A stretch of 29,625 nucleotides of DNA from Halalkalibacterium halodurans (GTDB taxonomy: Bacteria; Bacillota; Bacilli; Bacillales; Bacillaceae_D). Under the pieces are notes generated by a model. It ran no database searches. It had not been told where the DNA came from and worked only from the letters and a program-made list of their open reading frames with translations. Of this stretch, positions 8,158 to 14,560 are shown piece by piece. Position 1 is the first letter of the stretch, and the number at the start of each line of letters is the position of its first letter. The translations under genes were made by a program, and so were the position numbers. The stretch is taken from assembly GCF_004376175.1 (NCBI RefSeq), contig NZ_SNUY01000056.1, positions 1-29,625 of the forward strand, in the 5' to 3' direction.

Positions 8158-8329
8158 CTACTCAATTACCAAACTATACCAGTTTGGACGTTAGGATGGA
8201 TTATCCCCTGTAAGAAATTTTAATTCGTTCTACTTCTATCCAGTAGTACTGGTGAGATTACTATTTGGTGTTAGTGAAATTTGGAGAATACATGAGTATT
8301 AGCGAGAAAATTAAACTTTATTGAGGGAG

Positions 8330-8881
8330 GTATTGGATCAAATCCCCTGCCTTCTTCCCCATGTGATCTTAATGGACATTCAAATGCCTATAATGAATGG
8401 GATTGAATGTTTAAAGGTAGTTAAGAGAATTTATCCCCACATTAACGTATTGATGTTAACAACGTTTGAAGATGATGATTACATTATTGAAAGTTTGGTC
8501 GGTGGAGCCAATGGTTTTTTGTTGAAAGATTTAAATTATGACCAACTGATCTATTCCATACGTCAATCGGTTGATGGACAGATGTTAATCCCTAACTCCA
8601 TTGCCGTTAAGCTAGCCAAACAGCTCTCTAAATATAATGAGCTGACTGAAGTGGATTTACAAATTGAAAAGTTAAAAAAAGAAGGGTTGCATTTTTCTGA
8701 ACGGGAACGACAAATTGCCTCCCTTTTAGCCCAAGGATTGACGAATAAAAAAATTGCCGAGAAACTTTATATTACGGAAGGTACTGTGAAAAATTACATA
8801 AGTGAAATTTATAGCAAGATCGGGATCCGTGATCGGATGCAAGCTTCCACCTATTTGCGAGATTTAGGAATCAATGACTAG
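8330..8881 (+). pseudogene. NarL/LuxR-family response regulator, C-terminal fragment
   Basis: Remainder of the receiver domain (PHVILMDIQMPIMNGIE..., LMLTTFEDDDYI) plus a LuxR-type HTH (ERERQIASLLAQGLTNKKIAEKLYITEGTVKNYISEIYSKIGIRDRMQA). Confidence 0.8.
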
Positions 8882-9034: not shown

Positions 9035-9084
9035 CAGAAAAACGCTTATCTAGTCTTTTAGAACACTAGATAAGCGTTTTTCTG
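9035..9084. terminator. Bidirectional rho-independent terminator
   Basis: Perfect 20-bp inverted repeat cagaaaaacgcttatctagt (9035-9054) / actagataagcgtttttctg (9065-9084), with an A-run on the 5' arm and a T-run on the 3' arm. Confidence 0.7.
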
Positions 9085-9291: not shown

Positions 9292-9307
9292 GTTCTTTAT
9301 AAAGAAA
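9292..9307. promoter_or_regulatory. SinR-type operator (palindrome, 1 mismatch)
   Basis: gttctttataaagaaa. The left half, GTTCTTT, matches the SinR consensus GTTCTYT. It lies just upstream of the -35 box at 9315. Confidence 0.55.
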
Positions 9308-9314
9308 TGAAAAG

Positions 9315-9343
9315 TTGATAAACCTTCTCGCTTCCTTTATAAT
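9315..9343 (+). promoter_or_regulatory. Sigma-A promoter of the PilZ-like gene
   Basis: TTGATA (9315-9320), 17-nt spacer, TATAAT (9338-9343). Confidence 0.65.
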
Positions 9344-9359
9344 GTTCTTTATAAAGAAC
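9344..9359. promoter_or_regulatory. SinR-type operator (perfect 16-bp palindrome)
   Basis: GTTCTTTATAAAGAAC abuts the -10 box and so covers the expected transcription start. Its centre is 52 bp from the centre of the 9292-9307 site. Confidence 0.6.
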
Positions 9360-9383
9360 AATTTCAGTAAGGAGAGGTTGACG

Positions 9384-9779
9384 TTGAGGTCCATCCCCTG
9401 TTTAACCGAACCATTTTATGCTAAGTTAAAAATTATACAGGTTCATAGGCGACAGATCTCCTCTAAGGATTCGCTTGTTCAAGTTATTGAATTAGATATG
9501 AGAAAGCTTCGGTTTCGATCCGATTTAAAATTTCCTGTCTCTTCTAATGTTGTTTATGCTTTGTATGCCGAATTACTCGACTGTGAGTTTGAATTTGTTG
9601 GAACGATCGTTAAATCGATTTTCTTACAAAAACGAGCGGGCTTTGAATATCAACTGAACTACCTTGAAGGCGTACGTACAAAAAAGCCTTCAGCCGGTGC
9701 ACTGCTTTCTGCCATCGCCTTTCTCGAAGCACTAGGTCATGAAGAAGGCCAACTAAACGCAAAAGCCAACAATCTCTAA
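9384..9779 (+). CDS. Hypothetical protein, PilZ-like beta-barrel with degenerate c-di-GMP motifs
   Basis: TTG 9384 lies 6 nt after RBS aaggagagg. The longer track ORF starts inside the -35 box and is rejected. The pattern VQVIELDMRKLRFRSDLKFPVSSNVVYALYAELLDCEFEFVGTIVK...FEYQLNY follows the PilZ strand layout. However RxxxR is not intact (HRRQISS) and DxSxxG is replaced by DMRKLR. The functional call is tentative. Confidence 0.5.
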   Translation: MRSIPCLTEPFYAKLKIIQVHRRQISSKDSLVQVIELDMRKLRFRSDLKFPVSSNVVYALYAELLDCEFEFVGTIVKSIFLQKRAGFEYQLNYLEGVRTKKPSAGALLSAIAFLEALGHEEGQLNAKANNL

Positions 9780-9799
9780 CGTTCTGATTGTTGGCTTTT
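9761..9799. terminator. Bidirectional terminator spanning the overlapping stop codons of the PilZ-like gene and sinR
   Basis: 13-bp perfect arms aaaagccaacaat (9761-9773) / attgttggctttt (9787-9799). Both stop codons (taa 9777-9779 on plus, tag 9776-9778 on minus) sit in the loop. Confidence 0.7.
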
Positions 9800-10111
9800 C
9801 CATTTTTGGAATTCAAGATATTCCTTAAATTGGTCTTTGCTTATCCCTGATTCCATTGCTTCCTTGACTAGTTTCTTCCAATCTTCATCAAGCTCTTCTC
9901 TGCTAGTAGTGTCTTGTGTTGATTGTAATAAAGATTCGACAGAAACGTCCAGCACTTGGGAAATTTTTTCTAAGAAGTGAATGGATGGATTGGTTTGAAT
10001 GTTCCGCTCAATTGAACTAAGATACGATTTGGCCACTCCTGCCCGCTCTGCTAACTCGGAAAGAGAAAGCTCTTTTTCCAATCGGTACTTCTTTACACGT
10101 TCTCCAATCAT
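9776..10111 (-). CDS. sinR: SinR, master repressor of biofilm matrix genes (Xre-type HTH plus SinI/SinR oligomerisation helix)
   Basis: MIGERVKKYRLEKELSLSELAERAGVAKSYLSSIERNIQTNPSIHFLEKISQVLDVSVESLL ... KDQFKEYLEFQKWK is nearly collinear with B. subtilis SinR. Start taken at ATG 10111 (MIG...), as in B. subtilis. Confidence 0.9.
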   Translation of the reverse strand: MIGERVKKYRLEKELSLSELAERAGVAKSYLSSIERNIQTNPSIHFLEKISQVLDVSVESLLQSTQDTTSREELDEDWKKLVKEAMESGISKDQFKEYLEFQKWKSQQSER

Positions 10112-10152: not shown

Positions 10153-10182
10153 ATTATAACAACGAATTGAATGTTCTGTAAA
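10153..10182 (-). promoter_or_regulatory. Candidate internal sigma-A promoter for sinR, in the sinI-sinR spacer
   Basis: On the minus strand: TTTACA (10182-10177), 18-nt spacer, TGtTATAAT extended -10 (TATAAT = 10158-10153). Confidence 0.5.
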
Positions 10183-10188
10183 TAGAAC
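10173..10188. promoter_or_regulatory. Variant SinR-type operator GTTCT-N6-AGAAC overlapping the -35 box of the internal sinR promoter
   Basis: gttctgtaaatagaac has the same GTTCT/AGAAC arms and 6-nt spacing as the GTTCTTTATAAAGAAC sites, with a divergent centre. Confidence 0.4.
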
Positions 10189-10191
10189 CTA

Positions 10192-10323
10192 TTAGATGAT
10201 CTTGATTTTCTCTTTTTGTGAAACAGTTAAAAAGGAGCGGACTTCTTCAATAGTTAATCCTATTCTTTTTGCCTCCACGATTAATGCATACCATTCTTGA
10301 TCAAGAACTTTTTCTCCATTCAT
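10192..10323 (-). CDS. sinI: SinI, SinR antagonist
   Basis: 43-aa ORF absent from the supplied track: MNGEKVLDQEWYALIVEAKRIGLTIEEVRSFLTVSQKEKIKII, with RBS ggaggg 6 nt upstream. The core LDQEWxxLxVEAKxxxxxxEExRxxL matches B. subtilis SinI (LDQEWVELMVEAKEANISPEEIRKYL). It lies directly upstream of sinR. Confidence 0.8.
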   Translation of the reverse strand: MNGEKVLDQEWYALIVEAKRIGLTIEEVRSFLTVSQKEKIKII

Positions 10324-10513: not shown

Positions 10514-11098
10514 TTAGTATAGGGCCTCGGTCATCTCGGCTTGTACAATTAGGCGATGGGTCGGATCTTTCACAGGATCACACGTAATGAGCGTAAGTAC
10601 TGGAGCTGTTCCGTCATGTTGTAAAATGTCGATATTCGTAGGTTCAACAACTGTTATACTGTAAACCGTATATCGATACATGTGATTATTCGTTGTGACG
10701 GTAATGACATCCCCTACTTCGACTTCATCGAGCCGATTAAATTGCCTACCGTATGTTCGACTTCGGTGAGCGGCGATCGCTGCGTTCCCTTTTTCTCCGA
10801 TTGGTGATGACTCAATCATATGGCCGGCCCCAACTTTTAACGTCTCTTGATCAACACCTTGTAAGACTGGGAGCTTTAAAGAAATTTTCTCGATCTCTAA
10901 TACACCGATCGCATGTGGTTCTTCGCTAGAAAGGAGGTGTGGTTCTTCATTTGAAAAGGCTTCAAGCTCCCTATTTATTTTTTCATATGAATCAATCAAT
11001 CGGGTTTCGTAGAACGAATAATACTCGGTCTGTAATCTTGGAAAAAACATAAAAAGTAAGCCGAAACTAATGAACAAAACAGCTGTAATCGTTCTCAT
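10514..11098 (-). CDS. Sortase (membrane-anchored cysteine transpeptidase), probably dedicated to the adjacent LPQTG protein
   Basis: N-terminal TM segment. Catalytic His (NAAIAAHRS), TLITC cysteine motif and conserved Arg (THRLIVQAE). The start ATG overlaps the stop of the upstream gene (ATGA). Confidence 0.9.
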   Translation of the reverse strand: MRTITAVLFISFGLLFMFFPRLQTEYYSFYETRLIDSYEKINRELEAFSNEEPHLLSSEEPHAIGVLEIEKISLKLPVLQGVDQETLKVGAGHMIESSPIGEKGNAAIAAHRSRTYGRQFNRLDEVEVGDVITVTTNNHMYRYTVYSITVVEPTNIDILQHDGTAPVLTLITCDPVKDPTHRLIVQAEMTEALY

Positions 11099-11760
11099 GA
11101 TCCTCCTTCTAGCGACTCCTTACGATTTTTTCGGATGAGAAAGACGATACCGATTGAAAGAAGAAGAATCCCGATCAAATACATCCATGTCTGCACGGCT
11201 TCACCTGTTTGTGGTAATATCCCGCCCGGTCCACTCATCGAACCATCTGCTGGAAAATCAATTGGAGGCTGGAGCGTGCTTAACCGACCTTCCGAACGAA
11301 TCTGAAAGACAATGTCAGTCTGCAATCCTTGATATTCATTACCTGCCTCTTCTGGGAAAGTGACTGTAATAAATAACACATCGTCTTCACCTGAGGATAG
11401 AGCTCTTGAATCTAGCTTACGAAAATCTTTTAATTTTCCTGAGTGCAACGTCTGCCATTCATCTTTAATCGTTACATCCATGATGTTGTATAGCGCTTTC
11501 GAGCCTGAAACAAAAGAAGCTGACAAGACATAAGTACGATCATCCCCCTGGTTTACTATTATTAGTTCACGCGGAATCCAATCCCCTGGCTTTAAATGGT
11601 CCACGGAGAATAAAACATCTGCTGGGAACGTTTCAATATCGATCGTTGGCATCCGATCTGATGTAGCATATCCTGTCGTTGGAAATAAGAGCAACAAGAA
11701 GCTTATCATCAGTATCATTATCCTCAATATAATCACCACCCCACGAAAAAGAAAATCCAT
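11095..11760 (-). CDS. TasA/CalY-family (Peptidase_M73-like) protein with a C-terminal LPXTG cell-wall sorting signal
   Basis: It has the TasA-family hallmarks LKPGDWIPRELIIVNQGD and GNEYQGLQTDIVFQIRSE (compare LKPGD...NNG and NKYQG...F.F in TasA). The C-terminus is LPQTGEAVQTWMYLIGILLLSIGIVFLIRKNRKE, that is LPXTG plus a hydrophobic span plus a basic tail. The true start is probably internal (TTG 11727, ATG 11718 or ATG 11709), giving a signal peptide ending in TTGYA. Confidence 0.75.
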   Translation of the reverse strand: MDFLFRGVVIILRIMILMISFLLLLFPTTGYATSDRMPTIDIETFPADVLFSVDHLKPGDWIPRELIIVNQGDDRTYVLSASFVSGSKALYNIMDVTIKDEWQTLHSGKLKDFRKLDSRALSSGEDDVLFITVTFPEEAGNEYQGLQTDIVFQIRSEGRLSTLQPPIDFPADGSMSGPGGILPQTGEAVQTWMYLIGILLLSIGIVFLIRKNRKESLEGGS

Positions 11761-13207: not shown

Positions 13208-13958
13208 CGGCACCTTGCTCCCCTCCAGTTTCAAGATGGTTCTGTTTCGTGCGGCCTTCTTGCTCCTCTATGTCAGAATGCTCCTTTTCTTCGTTTTTCG
13301 GCGAAGGAAAATCGCTAGACTCGTCTTCTTCCAGGGTTGTGTCTTCCTCAAATGTCTCTTTATCTTCCTCCATTGAGCTTCTTTCTGCTTCGTCTATCTT
13401 TTCTTCAGGCTGTTTACAATCTTTCAAAACAAATGCATCCCCATCTTGCCAAACTTCGCCTTCTTCAGGGTGCCCCTCTTCTTGATAGACTTTAAACTTA
13501 TAGCGACCTGGTTCTGTTGGTTCGTATGTCAATTCCAATGTTTCTCCTGCTTTGAGAGGATCAATGGTACCTTCATAAAGGATTGTTTCATCCGTAAACG
13601 TTGGCTTGCCTTTCAAGTTTGGATCAAAGTACACAACATATGTAATGCTTTTTTTCATGTCACCGTCGCCAGCATTTTTAATCGTTACTGATAGTTCTTC
13701 ACAAGAACCTTTTTGCTCCCCTTGTAGGAACGTGAGAGAACTACCCCTCCATTCTTCTTTTACGTCATCTTTTCCATCGTCCCACTCACCTGCGTTCGTC
13801 GAATGTTCAATGGTGACAACTGCATTGAAGGAAGCAGTCGTAGGCTGTGTGATGGAAGCGAGCGAAAAACATAACAAATAGATAAGAATAAATGTTTTTA
13901 CAAAAATAGAGAAAGCTACTTTCTTTTTTTGTCGAGCAGTTAAGCGATCTTTGCGCAA
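13185..13958 (-). CDS. TapA-like secreted protein (TasA-type signal, CARDB-like beta-sandwich, acidic tail)
   Basis: Start proposed at TTG 13958, with RBS gggggtga 7 nt upstream, giving MRKDRLTARQKKKVAFSIFVKTFILIYLLCFSLASITQPTTASFNAVVTIE. This resembles the TapA/TasA signal and the T.A.F.D.E junction. The middle part (IKNAGDGDM ... PLKAGETLELTY ... GRYKF) resembles a CARDB-type Ig-like domain. The C-terminal ~70 aa are very rich in D and E. The position, first in the sipW-tasA operon, matches tapA. Confidence 0.55.
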   Translation of the reverse strand: MRKDRLTARQKKKVAFSIFVKTFILIYLLCFSLASITQPTTASFNAVVTIEHSTNAGEWDDGKDDVKEEWRGSSLTFLQGEQKGSCEELSVTIKNAGDGDMKKSITYVVYFDPNLKGKPTFTDETILYEGTIDPLKAGETLELTYEPTEPGRYKFKVYQEEGHPEEGEVWQDGDAFVLKDCKQPEEKIDEAERSSMEEDKETFEEDTTLEEDESSDFPSPKNEEKEHSDIEEQEGRTKQNHLETGGEQGADEDTENH

Positions 13959-13987
13959 AACTCCATCACCCCCAGCAGCTTCGTTTT

Positions 13988-14003
13988 GTTCTTTATAAAG
14001 AAC
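13988..14003. promoter_or_regulatory. SinR-type operator (perfect 16-bp palindrome)
   Basis: GTTCTTTATAAAGAAC, 30 nt upstream of the proposed TapA-like start codon. Confidence 0.6.
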
Positions 14004-14048
14004 TAACACTGTCAGTATAGATCTATACATTAAGAAAAGAAACCTCTG

Positions 14049-14077
14049 TAAAGAACGATAAGGACGATATAACGAAC
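14049..14077. promoter_or_regulatory. Two additional SinR-type half-sites
   Basis: taaagaac (14049-14056, the reverse complement of GTTCTTTA) and aacgaac (14071-14077, the reverse complement of GTTCGTT). Confidence 0.35.
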
Positions 14078-14124
14078 ATTTTTCACACATTCTCTTTGAA
14101 TAACTCATGATTTCTCACGTTTTT

Positions 14125-14140
14125 GTTTTTTATAAAGAAC
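14125..14140. promoter_or_regulatory. SinR-type operator (palindrome, 1 mismatch)
   Basis: gttttttataaagaac has one mismatch to GTTCTTTATAAAGAAC. Its centre is 137 bp from the centre of the 13988-14003 site. Confidence 0.5.
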
Positions 14141-14329: not shown

Positions 14330-14560
14330 CTATTTAAAGAACGAATTAGTGTGGTTCACGTGAACGAAGGTAATCAATCCGTTGATCGATGCAGCCGTAG
14401 CTTGCTTGACAGGGACTTGCCAAATAAACAACGAAAGTCCTGCAGCCACAAGAAATGAAATTGGCATCGCTTTACTTGCAGGCATCCGCATCCCAACTAA
14501 TAAGACCCCCACAACAATAATGGGTAACAACGACATAAAGGCTAACCAGCCGGTGGTCAA
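14330..14560 (-). pseudogene. L-lactate/glycolate permease (LctP/GlcA family), N-terminal ~64 codons only
   Basis: TTG start with RBS ggggagagg. LSLLPIIVVGVLLVGMRMPASKAMPISFLVAAGLSLFIWQVPVKQATAASINGL matches the first two TM helices of LctP-family permeases, which are about 550 aa. The frame then ends after 12 unrelated codons. Confidence 0.6.

What the first reader, a model, noticed from the sequence alone, without database searches (positions are those of the whole stretch)
9292..9779. Near-consensus promoter sandwiched between two SinR-type operators drives a degenerate PilZ-like gene
Seen in the sequence:
- TTGATA-17-TATAAT (9315-9343) is flanked by the palindromes at 9292-9307 and 9344-9359. 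Their centres are 52 bp apart, about five helical turns.
- The downstream ORF (TTG 9384, strong RBS) has a PilZ-like strand pattern.
- The c-di-GMP-binding signatures are not intact: RRQISS instead of RxxxR, and DMRKLR instead of DxSxxG.

Inference: this small protein is a new candidate member of the SinR matrix regulon. It may be a c-di-GMP-independent PilZ-fold adaptor, for example a motility brake or matrix-synthesis partner expressed only when SinR is antagonised. B. subtilis has no equivalent gene at this position.
Basis: partly seen in the sequence, partly recalled or inferred. Interest (0 to 1): 0.65.

Follow-up and report, generated by a model that had tools for sequence, protein, structure and literature searches.

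The report
SinR-controlled degenerate PilZ gene beside sinR
Next to the biofilm master-repressor gene sinR of Halalkalibacterium halodurans lies a small conserved gene (BH2124) for a PilZ-fold protein that has lost its c-di-GMP-binding motifs and whose promoter is clamped by two textbook SinR operators, making it a plausible but untested new component of the biofilm switch.

Summary
The DNA observation holds. TTGATA-17-TATAAT (9315-9343) is bracketed by GTTCTTTATAAAGAAA (9292-9307, 15/16) and the perfect palindrome GTTCTTTATAAAGAAC (9344-9359), with centres 52 bp apart. The 16-mer has the 7-2-7 geometry of the published high-affinity SinR operator. It recurs at the head of the sipW/tasA matrix operon (8 near-matches in the window against 0.29 expected).

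The ORF (9384-9779, 131 aa) is BH2124 of H. halodurans, annotated hypothetical and never studied. Pfam and NCBIfam find nothing. Exhaustive HMMER, profile-profile comparison (98.8 %, E 1e-16) and an AlphaFold model (pLDDT 82; best PDB matches mostly PilZ) show a PilZ-fold domain lacking both RxxxR and D/NxSxxG.

All seven Bacillaceae genomes examined keep the gene converging on sinR-sinI, with a SinR-type palindrome starting right after the -10 box. Five also have a coupled 71-72-aa SinR/SlrR-like HTH gene. Five Paenibacillus homologues lie 3-5 kb from sinR/sinI, and two of them head EPS operons.

Best reading: a SinR-repressed, c-di-GMP-blind PilZ adaptor of the matrix switch. Its target is unknown and a YcgR/MotI-type brake is disfavoured. 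This is a new variant of known kinds, of moderate interest.

The parts
9035..9084 (+). 20-bp-stem hairpin after the upstream response-regulator gene. It is a probable terminator that makes the PilZ-like gene its own transcription unit.
   Evidence: RNA fold dG -28.9 kcal/mol, z -9.4, 0 of 200 shuffles as stable
9292..9307 (.). Operator O1, GTTCTTTATAAAGAAA (15/16 palindrome, 7-2-7 SinR type), upstream of the -35 box
   Evidence: An equivalent O1 lies at 52-53 bp spacing in L046, L047, L048 and L055.
9315..9320 (+). -35 hexamer TTGATA
   Evidence: Relatives have TTTACC or TTTACT at the same place.
9338..9343 (+). -10 hexamer TATAAT
   Evidence: It is TATAAT in the window, L046, L047, L048, L055 and L056, and TAAGAT in L054.
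9344..9359 (.). Operator O2, the perfect palindrome GTTCTTTATAAAGAAC. It starts at the base after the -10 box and so should cover the transcription start.
   Evidence: An O2 abuts the -10 box in 7 of 7 genomes. It has the same geometry as the published SinR operator GTTCTCTAAAGAGAAC.
9369..9377 (+). Shine-Dalgarno sequence AAGGAGAGG
   Evidence: An SD is aligned in the orthologues.
9384..9779 (+). CDS of a 131-aa degenerate PilZ-fold protein (orthologue of BH2124) with a TTG start
   Evidence: (BAB05843.1, 131 aa). dN/dS among orthologues is 0.11-0.23.
9762..9798 (.). 13-bp-stem hairpin with the stop codons of both convergent genes in its 11-nt loop. It is a probable shared bidirectional terminator.
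   Evidence: dG -21.9 kcal/mol and z -5.8 on the + strand; -17.0 kcal/mol and z -2.5 on the - strand
9776..10111 (-). sinR (111 aa; HTH_3 plus a SinI-type C-terminal domain)
   Evidence: Pfam. E 4.6e-42 to B. subtilis SinR 1B0N/3ZKC.
10173..10188 (.). Operator-like GTTCTGTAAATAGAAC overlapping the -35 box of the sinR promoter (TTTACA-18-TATAAT, 10182..10153)
   Evidence: The 16-mer is identical in L046, L047, L048 and L055.
10192..10323 (-). sinI (SinI domain; 43 aa as called in L044)
13988..14003 (.). Exact second copy of the O2 16-mer at the head of the tapA-like/sipW/tasA(calY) operon
14125..14140 (.). A 15/16 copy (GTTTTTTATAAAGAAC), 137 bp from the copy at 13988

Best explanation
The gene (BH2124 orthologue, 9384-9779) encodes a single-domain PilZ-fold protein: a six-stranded beta-barrel plus a C-terminal helix. 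It descends from c-di-GMP-binding PilZ proteins but has lost the N-terminal RxxxR arm and the D/NxSxxG loop, so it should no longer sense c-di-GMP in the canonical way.

It is transcribed from its own sigma-A promoter. O2 starts at the base after the -10 box and should cover the transcription start. O1 lies five helical turns upstream.

Inferred mechanism: the SinR tetramer encoded next door binds both 7-2-7 operators, probably looping the 52 bp between them, and shuts the promoter. When SinI titrates SinR, the gene switches on together with the tapA-like/sipW/tasA operon, which carries the same operators. The protein then acts by protein-protein contact as a nucleotide-blind adaptor within the matrix/biofilm switch. 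The most likely partner is a SinR/SlrR-family regulator or the exopolysaccharide machinery.

Shown here: the sequence features, their conservation, the homology and the fold.
Inferred: SinR binding, looping, co-derepression with the matrix genes and the adaptor role.
For: Operators:
- Exact fit to GTTCTYT in 7-2-7 inverted orientation, the arrangement SinR binds best (Kd about 300 nM). SinR is a tetramer, and occupying more than two motifs would need looping (PMC3163267).
- The 16-mer is over-represented, 8 matches against 0.29 expected, and sits at the matrix operon and at the sinR promoter.
- The local SinR has an HTH identical to B. subtilis SinR apart from one L-to-I change.

Conservation:
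- In 7 of 7 Bacillaceae genomes the homologue converges on sinR-sinI, even where the flanking genes differ.
- In every one a SinR-type palindrome begins right after the -10 box. An O1 lies 52-53 bp upstream in five of them, while the intervening sequence diverges.
- Between H. halodurans strains, 5 substitutions fall in the upstream region and none in O1, -35, -10, O2 or the SD.

Protein:
- The exhaustive phmmer search reaches canonical PilZ proteins at E 5.5e-7 to 5.7e-4, two of which (P0006, P0011) Pfam scores as PF07238 above its cut-off.
- hhalign of the degenerate subfamily against the canonical relatives gives probability 98.8 % and E 1e-16 over 91 columns.
- The AF2 model has pLDDT 82.4 and pTM 0.73.
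- The best PDB matches are mostly PilZ domains: MrkH, BcsA, VCA0042, MotI, Alg44, PlzA and MapZ.
- Both motifs are missing in the alignments.
- dN/dS among orthologues is 0.11-0.23.

Pathway link:
- Paenibacillus homologues lie 3-5 kb from sinR/sinI, and two of them head EPS operons.
- The canonical PilZ cousins are not near sinR.
Against: - There is no expression, binding or phenotype data of any kind.
- The promoter scan is not enriched over shuffles.
- O1 is imperfect.
- Foldseek E-values are weak (best 3.6e-3, none at or below 1e-3).
- The AF2 alignment included canonical PilZ sequences, so the model is not independent of the homology call.
- Pfam itself does not recognise the protein.
- In five relatives a 71-72-aa SinR/SlrR-like HTH gene is co-transcribed and may be the protein that binds these operators.
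- The Paenibacillus homologues lack the palindrome pair.
- The partner of the protein is unknown. The adaptor idea rests only on gene neighbourhood and on the precedent of non-binding PilZ proteins.
Confidence: 0.6

Rival explanations
1. The operators are recognised mainly by a SinR paralogue, not by SinR itself. Candidates are an SlrR-like protein or the 71-72-aa DNA-binding-domain-only HTH seen in relatives, or a SinR heteromer with one of them. The PilZ-like gene would then belong to that paralogue's autoregulated operon.
For: - Five of seven Bacillaceae loci couple the PilZ-like gene to a 71-72-aa HTH gene. That protein is 41 % identical to the SinR DNA-binding domain, and its best NCBIfam hit is SlrR.
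- In those five genomes O2 deviates from the perfect SinR consensus. It reads GTTCTTATT[GA]GAGAAC in four and GTTCTTTAATAAGAAC in L055. O2 is a perfect consensus only in the two genomes that lack the small HTH, the window and L054.
Against: - The window has no copy of the small HTH gene. tblastn finds only sinR.
- The window's O2 is the exact SinR consensus and is identical to the site at the tasA-type operon.
- A 71-aa protein without the C-terminal hook cannot tetramerise in the way described for SinR (PMC3163267).
Confidence: 0.15
2. The protein is a flagellar brake or clutch of the YcgR/MotI type that stops motility when matrix genes switch on. It would work without c-di-GMP because SinR supplies the timing.
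For: - B. subtilis MotI/DgrA (5vx6) is among the structural matches, with the highest query-normalised TM-score of the top hits (0.56).
- SinR-controlled coupling of matrix production to motility arrest has a precedent in the EpsE clutch (own knowledge, not tested here).
Against: - The protein has one domain of 131 aa, with no YcgR-N/PilZN-like N-terminal domain. Pfam finds nothing, and the model shows one barrel plus one helix.
- MotI matches no better than MrkH, BcsA or Alg44 by E-value.
- No flagellar genes lie nearby, apart from one 77-aa CheC-domain ORF in L054.
Confidence: 0.12
3. The protein still binds c-di-GMP or another nucleotide through a non-canonical site and is a genuine second-messenger receptor.
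For: - The PilZ barrel is retained and under purifying selection.
- A GGDEF-EAL gene lies 2-5 kb beyond sinI in four relatives: L046, L047, L048 and L055.
Against: - RxxxR is absent because the protein starts at that position. D/NxSxxG is replaced by E-L-D-M-R-K in the window and by a non-Gly [ST]-x-x-S pattern in the subfamily.
- Pfam's PilZ model scores none of the four degenerate members checked individually: the window protein, P0003, P0004 and P0005. In the 41-member alignment it matches 16 members.
- The window has no c-di-GMP enzymes or riboswitch.
Confidence: 0.08
4. The ORF is not a functional protein gene. The promoter instead makes a transcript whose job is to interfere with the convergent sinR gene by antisense or collision.
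For: - The two genes converge and their stop codons overlap.
- The promoter is strong and its operators are SinR-type, which would create a feedback loop.
Against: - The ORF is conserved across genera with dN/dS 0.11-0.23.
- It has a strong SD and folds confidently.
- A stable hairpin followed by a U-rich tract sits exactly at the gene junction and should stop most read-through.
- In five relatives another gene and an intergenic gap separate it from sinR.
Confidence: 0.04

Closest known systems
PilZ domain c-di-GMP receptors (Pfam PF07238; e.g. Alg44, BcsA, VCA0042/PlzD, MrkH, MapZ)
   Same: - Same fold: a six-stranded beta-barrel plus a C-terminal helix.
- Demonstrable homology to PF07238-positive proteins of Bacillota.
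   Different: - It lacks the RxxxR arm and the D/NxSxxG loop that define c-di-GMP binding.
- It is not recognised by the Pfam model.
- It is a single small protein with no output domain.
Non-c-di-GMP-binding PilZ adaptors (type IV pilus PilZ of Pseudomonas/Xanthomonas acting through FimX-PilB; tetrameric PilZ of xanthomonads)
   Same: Both keep the PilZ fold with binding motifs lost or degenerate and act through protein partners. The abstracts of PMC3131395 and PMC8389850 describe such proteins.
   Different: - Different phylum and no detectable close sequence relation.
- No pilus genes nearby.
- Here the link is to the SinI/SinR module and EPS loci, and control is transcriptional, through SinR-type operators.
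B. subtilis MotI/DgrA (YpfA), PDB 5vx6
   Same: It is a Bacillota PilZ protein and a structural match (TMq 0.56). It also belongs to the motility/biofilm decision (own knowledge).
   Different: MotI has two domains (209 aa) and is described as c-di-GMP-dependent. This protein has one domain and no binding motifs. Identity in the structural alignment is 10 %.
SinR operators of B. subtilis tapA(yqxM)-sipW-tasA and epsA-O promoters
   Same: - GTTCTYT motifs, with the inverted 7-2-7 pair as the high-affinity form.
- Multiple sites per promoter, a tetrameric repressor, and looping proposed in the literature (PMC3163267).
   Different: - Here there is a compact, symmetric layout of two palindromes bracketing a near-consensus promoter at a 52-53 bp spacing.
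- The layout is conserved in alkaliphilic Bacillaceae and controls a gene that was not found in B. subtilis.
SinI / SlrA antirepressors and SlrR (partners of SinR)
   Same: They are encoded in or near the sinIR locus. SlrR is known to be SinR-repressed (own knowledge). All are small proteins that tune the same switch.
   Different: The PilZ-like protein has no SinI-type helical-hook domain (PF08671 does not hit it). Its fold is completely different, and any interaction with SinR is hypothetical.

Membership tests
PilZ domain (PF07238) | Six-stranded beta-barrel with a C-terminal helix | tested here: met
   The AF2 model has pLDDT 82.4, strands at 11-20, 30-37, 41-46, 56-64, 67-81 and 86-93, and a helix at 104-127. 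The best PDB matches are mostly PilZ domains, most with probability 0.99-1.00 and TM 0.5-0.6 against single-domain targets, but E is never below 3.6e-3.
PilZ domain (PF07238) | Sequence match to the family model or homology to members | tested here: inconclusive
   Pfam hmmscan gives no hit at E up to 1. However, phmmer reaches PF07238-positive proteins at E 5.5e-7 to 5.7e-4, and hhalign against them gives 98.8 % and E 1e-16. The protein is homologous to the family but falls outside the curated model.
PilZ domain (PF07238) | RxxxR motif in the N-terminal arm | tested here: not met
   The protein starts where the motif lies in canonical relatives. An RxxxR-like R-L-T-L-R exists only in the untranslated in-frame codons that form the RBS.
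PilZ domain (PF07238) | D/NxSxxG motif | tested here: not met
   The aligned residues are E37-L-D-M-R-K42. The subfamily consensus is E-[IL]-[ST]-x-[KR]-S.
PilZ domain (PF07238) | Binds c-di-GMP | not testable with these tools
   Needs DRaCALA or ITC with purified protein.
SinR regulon / SinR operator | GTTCTYT motifs, preferably as a 7-2-7 inverted repeat, at the promoter | tested here: met
   O2 has 0 mismatches and O1 has 1. The published operator is GTTCTCT-AA-AGAGAAC (PMC3163267).
SinR regulon / SinR operator | A cognate SinR with conserved DNA-reading residues is present in the genome | tested here: met
   sinR lies at 9776-10111. It matches 1B0N/3ZKC at E 4.6e-42, and the stretch AGVAKSYLSSIERN-QTNPSI is identical apart from one L-to-I change.
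SinR regulon / SinR operator | The same operator occurs at canonical SinR targets (tasA-type matrix operon) | tested here: met
   An exact 16-mer at 13988 and a 15/16 copy at 14125 lie upstream of the tapA-like/sipW/calY operon.
SinR regulon / SinR operator | SinR binds the DNA, and the gene is derepressed in a sinR mutant or by SinI | not testable with these tools
   Needs EMSA or footprinting and reporter fusions.
YcgR/MotI-type flagellar brake | N-terminal YcgR-N/PilZN domain preceding the PilZ domain | tested here: not met
   The protein is 131 aa with one barrel, and nothing precedes strand 1 except 10 residues.
YcgR/MotI-type flagellar brake | Interaction with MotA, FliG or FliM | not testable with these tools
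   Needs interaction assays.
SinI-type antirepressor (PF08671) | Two-helix hook homologous to the SinR C-terminal domain | tested here: not met
   PF08671 hits SinR and SinI in the window but not this protein.

The most novel reading that the evidence does not exclude
The degenerate PilZ protein is a third kind of direct modulator of SinR-family repressors, alongside the SinI/SlrA hooks and SlrR. It would bind SinR, or the small SinR/SlrR-like HTH it is co-transcribed with in relatives, and so close a feedback loop in the biofilm bistable switch. A fold that normally reads c-di-GMP would have been rewired to be read out transcriptionally by SinR instead.
Probability: 0.15. Interest if true: 0.75.

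Novelty: new variant of a known kind. Interest (0 to 1): 0.5.

Why it matters
The SinI/SinR switch is one of the best-studied bacterial cell-fate circuits, yet almost all of what is known comes from B. subtilis, where this gene was not found.

A conserved gene that travels with sinR-sinI and carries SinR-type operators points to an unrecognised component or output of the switch. It is present in alkaliphilic Bacillaceae, and relatives lie near sinR and EPS loci in Paenibacillus.

It also gives a clear example in Bacillota of a PilZ domain that has shed c-di-GMP binding. It defines a small family (at least 35 sequences found here) that Pfam and NCBIfam do not recognise.

The compact O1-promoter-O2 layout is a simple natural test case for the DNA-looping model proposed for tetrameric SinR.

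Tried and rejected
- **Pfam and NCBIfam scans** of the protein found nothing.
- **Sequence-profile search of the PDB** found nothing at E up to 1.
- **Single-sequence AlphaFold** was unusable, with pLDDT 36.
- **Word-indexed protein search with the single sequence** returned only a 98 % identical Logan entry.
- **tblastn of the protein against 43 sinR loci** from species-representative genomes gave only two weak Paenibacillus hits. H. halodurans itself was not among the loci returned.
- **Rfam scan of the window** found no family and no c-di-GMP riboswitch.
- **A remnant of the 71-aa HTH gene** is absent from the window. Only sinR matches.
- **A SinR palindrome pair upstream of the Paenibacillus homologues** was not found, only isolated half-sites.
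- **An upstream ATG 9342 start** (the 145-aa Logan gene call, which would include an RxxxR-like RLTLR) was rejected for four reasons. It overlaps the -10 box and O2. It has no SD. All degenerate relatives start at the position of TTG 9384. The deposited BH2124 is 131 aa.
- **Antisense interference with sinR as the main function** was rejected because of the junction hairpin and the purifying selection on the ORF.
- **The literature** holds no paper mentioning BH2124, and none linking a PilZ protein to SinR control.
Full report
**1. What is in the sequence**

- The -35 box TTGATA (9315-9320), a 17-nt spacer and the -10 box TATAAT (9338-9343) give an 11/12 match to consensus.
- Immediately after the -10 box lies the perfect 16-bp palindrome GTTCTTTATAAAGAAC (O2, 9344-9359).
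- Upstream lies GTTCTTTATAAAGAAA (O1, 9292-9307, 15/16).
- The operator centres are 52 bp apart.
- AAGGAGAGG (9369-9377) precedes TTG 9384, which opens a 131-codon frame ending at 9779.
- That stop codon overlaps the stop of the convergent sinR gene (9776-10111, minus strand).
- A 20-bp-stem hairpin at 9035-9084 (dG -28.9 kcal/mol, z -9.4) follows the upstream response-regulator gene, so the ORF probably has its own transcription unit.
- A 13-bp-stem hairpin at 9762-9798 holds both stop codons in its loop (dG -21.9 kcal/mol, z -5.8) and is followed by a U-rich tract. It is a likely shared bidirectional terminator.

**2. Is it more than chance?**

- The bare 7-mer GTTCTYT is not significantly enriched (18 against 12.25 expected). 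Promoter-like hits are not enriched either (5 against 4.5).
- The 16-mer is enriched. With up to 3 mismatches there are 8 matches against 0.29 expected, and 0 of 100 shuffles reach 8.
- The matches are not scattered. Two lie at this promoter. One overlaps the -35 box of the sinR promoter (10173-10188). Three lie in front of the tapA-like/sipW/calY(tasA) matrix operon (13988 exact, 14125 at 15/16, and 14327).

**3. Identity of the operators**

- The published SinR consensus is GTTCTYT. Of the arrangements tested, SinR bound tightest (Kd about 300 nM) to the duplex with the inverted repeat GTTCTCT-AA-AGAGAAC.
- SinR is a tetramer (a dimer of dimers), and occupying more than two motifs would require DNA looping (PMC3163267).
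- O2 has the same 7-2-7 geometry and fits the consensus exactly.
- The SinR encoded 17 bp... more precisely, the SinR whose gene ends at the ORF's stop codon is a full-length match to B. subtilis SinR (1B0N/3ZKC, E 4.6e-42). Its helix-turn-helix stretch is identical apart from one L-to-I change.
- The 52-bp spacing is 4.95 turns of B-DNA, so both palindromes face the same side.

**4. Source and annotation**

- The window comes from Halalkalibacterium (Bacillus) halodurans.
- The ORF is BH2124 of strain C-125 (BAB05843.1), deposited as a 131-aa hypothetical protein. This agrees with the TTG 9384 start.
- No paper in the library mentions BH2124.

**5. The protein**

- Pfam and NCBIfam give no hit, and a profile search of PDB sequences gives none.
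- The exhaustive phmmer search of 1.84 billion representatives gives 12 hits. Seven are small degenerate relatives. Three are canonical PilZ-type proteins with RxxxR and D/NxSxxG, two of which Pfam scores as PF07238 above its cut-off.
- Profile searches add Alkalihalobacillus, Halalkalibacter and about 20 Paenibacillus proteins, all annotated hypothetical. They also add Aneurinibacillus proteins named as PilZ domain-containing.
- Profile-profile comparison of the degenerate subfamily alone against the canonical set alone gives probability 98.8 % and E 1e-16 over 91 columns.
- With a 41-sequence alignment AlphaFold gives pLDDT 82.4 and pTM 0.73, showing six strands and a C-terminal helix.
- The best PDB matches are mostly PilZ domains: MrkH, BcsA, VCA0042, MotI, Alg44, PlzA and MapZ. 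The E-values are modest (3.6e-3 at best), and the alignment contained canonical PilZ sequences, so the model is not independent of the homology call.
- In the alignments RxxxR falls at the very N-terminus, where this protein and its subfamily simply begin. D/NxSxxG aligns with E37-L-D-M-R-K42.
- Orthologues show dN/dS of 0.11-0.23 where dS is not saturated.
- Between H. halodurans strains the ORF has 2 substitutions in 396 nt, both non-synonymous. The upstream 154 nt has 5 substitutions, none of them in O1, -35, -10, O2 or the SD.

**6. Comparative genomics**

- In seven Bacillaceae genomes the homologue converges on sinR-sinI: the window with L044 and L045, plus L046, L047, L048, L054, L055 and L056.
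- This holds even where the flanking genes are unrelated (L054, L056).
- In all seven a SinR-type palindrome begins at the base after the -10 hexamer.
- In five of them an O1 lies 52-53 bp upstream. In L054 and L056 an O1-like site overlaps the -35 box at 30 bp, and L056 has a further site at 61 bp.
- Five genomes have a translationally coupled or closely following 71-72-aa gene for a SinR/SlrR-like DNA-binding domain without the C-terminal hook. It is 41 % identical to the SinR DNA-binding domain, and its best NCBIfam hit is SlrR.
- The window and L054 lack this gene, and they are also the only two with a perfect-consensus O2. The sample is small, but the correlation is worth noting.
- In five Paenibacillus genomes the homologue lies 3-5 kb from sinR/sinI, divergent from an XRE-type HTH gene. 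In L035 and L050 it heads an EPS operon (CpsB in L035, then Wzz, a tyrosine-kinase-like ATPase and glycosyltransferases). No palindrome pair is seen there.
- Two canonical PilZ cousins are not near sinR or EPS genes.

**7. Mechanism proposed**

- Shown: the operator, promoter, SD and ORF anatomy; its conservation; the PilZ homology and fold; the loss of both motifs; and the linkage to sinIR.
- Inferred: tetrameric SinR binds O1 and O2 and loops the promoter. O2 should cover the start site if transcription begins 6-8 nt after the -10 box, as is usual for sigma-A promoters. SinI relieves repression, so the gene is co-expressed with the matrix operon.
- Also inferred: the protein acts as a c-di-GMP-blind adaptor by protein-protein contact. 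Its partner is unknown.
- Gene neighbourhood points first to SinR/SlrR-type HTH proteins, which are always adjacent, and second to EPS machinery (Paenibacillus).
- A YcgR/MotI-like brake is less likely because the N-terminal domain those proteins need is missing.

**8. Comparison with what is known, and novelty**

- The parts are of known kinds: SinR operators, a PilZ fold, and non-binding PilZ adaptors (abstracts).
- New here are a degenerate PilZ subfamily that the curated family libraries do not detect, its conserved attachment to the sinI-sinR module, and the compact operator-promoter-operator design.
- I rate it a new variant of a known kind, with interest 0.5.

**Correction to section 3.** The phrase about the distance between the ORF and sinR should read simply: the two genes converge and their stop codons overlap (9776-9779).

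Noticed in passing
window 6472-7812 (+), with 6290-6433 and 8321-8881: An IS110-family transposase gene splits a NarL/LuxR-type response-regulator gene into an N-terminal and a C-terminal piece. The regulator is intact (240 aa) in another H. halodurans contig (L044). A homologous regulator sits just upstream of the PilZ-like gene in L046 and L047 and is decayed in L048. A second IS110 copy lies at 23-1306.
   Followed up: partly
window 10514-11760 (-): The matrix operon carries a sortase gene (10514-11098). It also carries a gene for an LPXTG-anchored protein with a weak camelysin/TasA-like N-terminus (11095-11760), placed between calY/tasA and sinI. This hints at sortase-anchored TasA-type fibres, unlike B. 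subtilis.
   Followed up: no
window 10173-10188: GTTCTGTAAATAGAAC overlaps the -35 box of the sinR promoter (TTTACA-18-TATAAT, 10182..10153). The 16-mer is identical in L046, L047, L048 and L055, which suggests conserved autoregulation of sinR. Perfect or near-perfect palindromes also lie upstream of sinI in those genomes and in L054.
   Followed up: partly
window 9762-9798: A 13-bp-stem hairpin has the stop codons of both convergent genes (the PilZ-like gene and sinR) in its 11-nt loop. Its arms encode the last residues of both proteins, so it is probably a shared bidirectional terminator embedded in coding sequence.
   Followed up: partly
L046 8384-8599, L047 6115-6330, L048 8384-8599, L055 6381-6596, L056 5393-5611: A 71-72-aa gene for a SinR/SlrR-like DNA-binding domain with no oligomerisation hook is coupled to the PilZ-like gene and converges on sinR. 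It is absent from H. halodurans and from L054.
   Followed up: partly
window about 14330-14560 (-): Only a 5' fragment of about 76 codons of a lactate permease gene remains between the matrix operon and the malate synthase gene. The gene is 595 aa in L044 and is split in two in L045.
   Followed up: no
window 9369-9389: The in-frame codons just upstream of and across TTG 9384 read K-E-R-L-T-L-R, an RxxxR-like string at roughly the position of the lost PilZ motif. These bases are also the Shine-Dalgarno sequence. This may be a relic of a longer ancestral N-terminus or a coincidence.
   Followed up: partly
window 13957-14108 (-): The 307-aa ORF at the head of the matrix operon, as listed mechanically, contains the 13988 operator inside its 5' end. 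L045 calls a shorter product of 274 aa. The true start is probably further downstream, which would put the operator in the promoter or leader.
   Followed up: no
L035 15444-20090; L050 8001-16441: In Paenibacillus pectinilyticus and P. oryzisoli the PilZ-like gene is the first gene of a capsule/EPS-type operon (CpsB in L035, then Wzz, a tyrosine-kinase-like ATPase, a nucleotidyl transferase and a priming sugar transferase). A LytR-CpsA-Psr gene lies upstream.
   Followed up: partly
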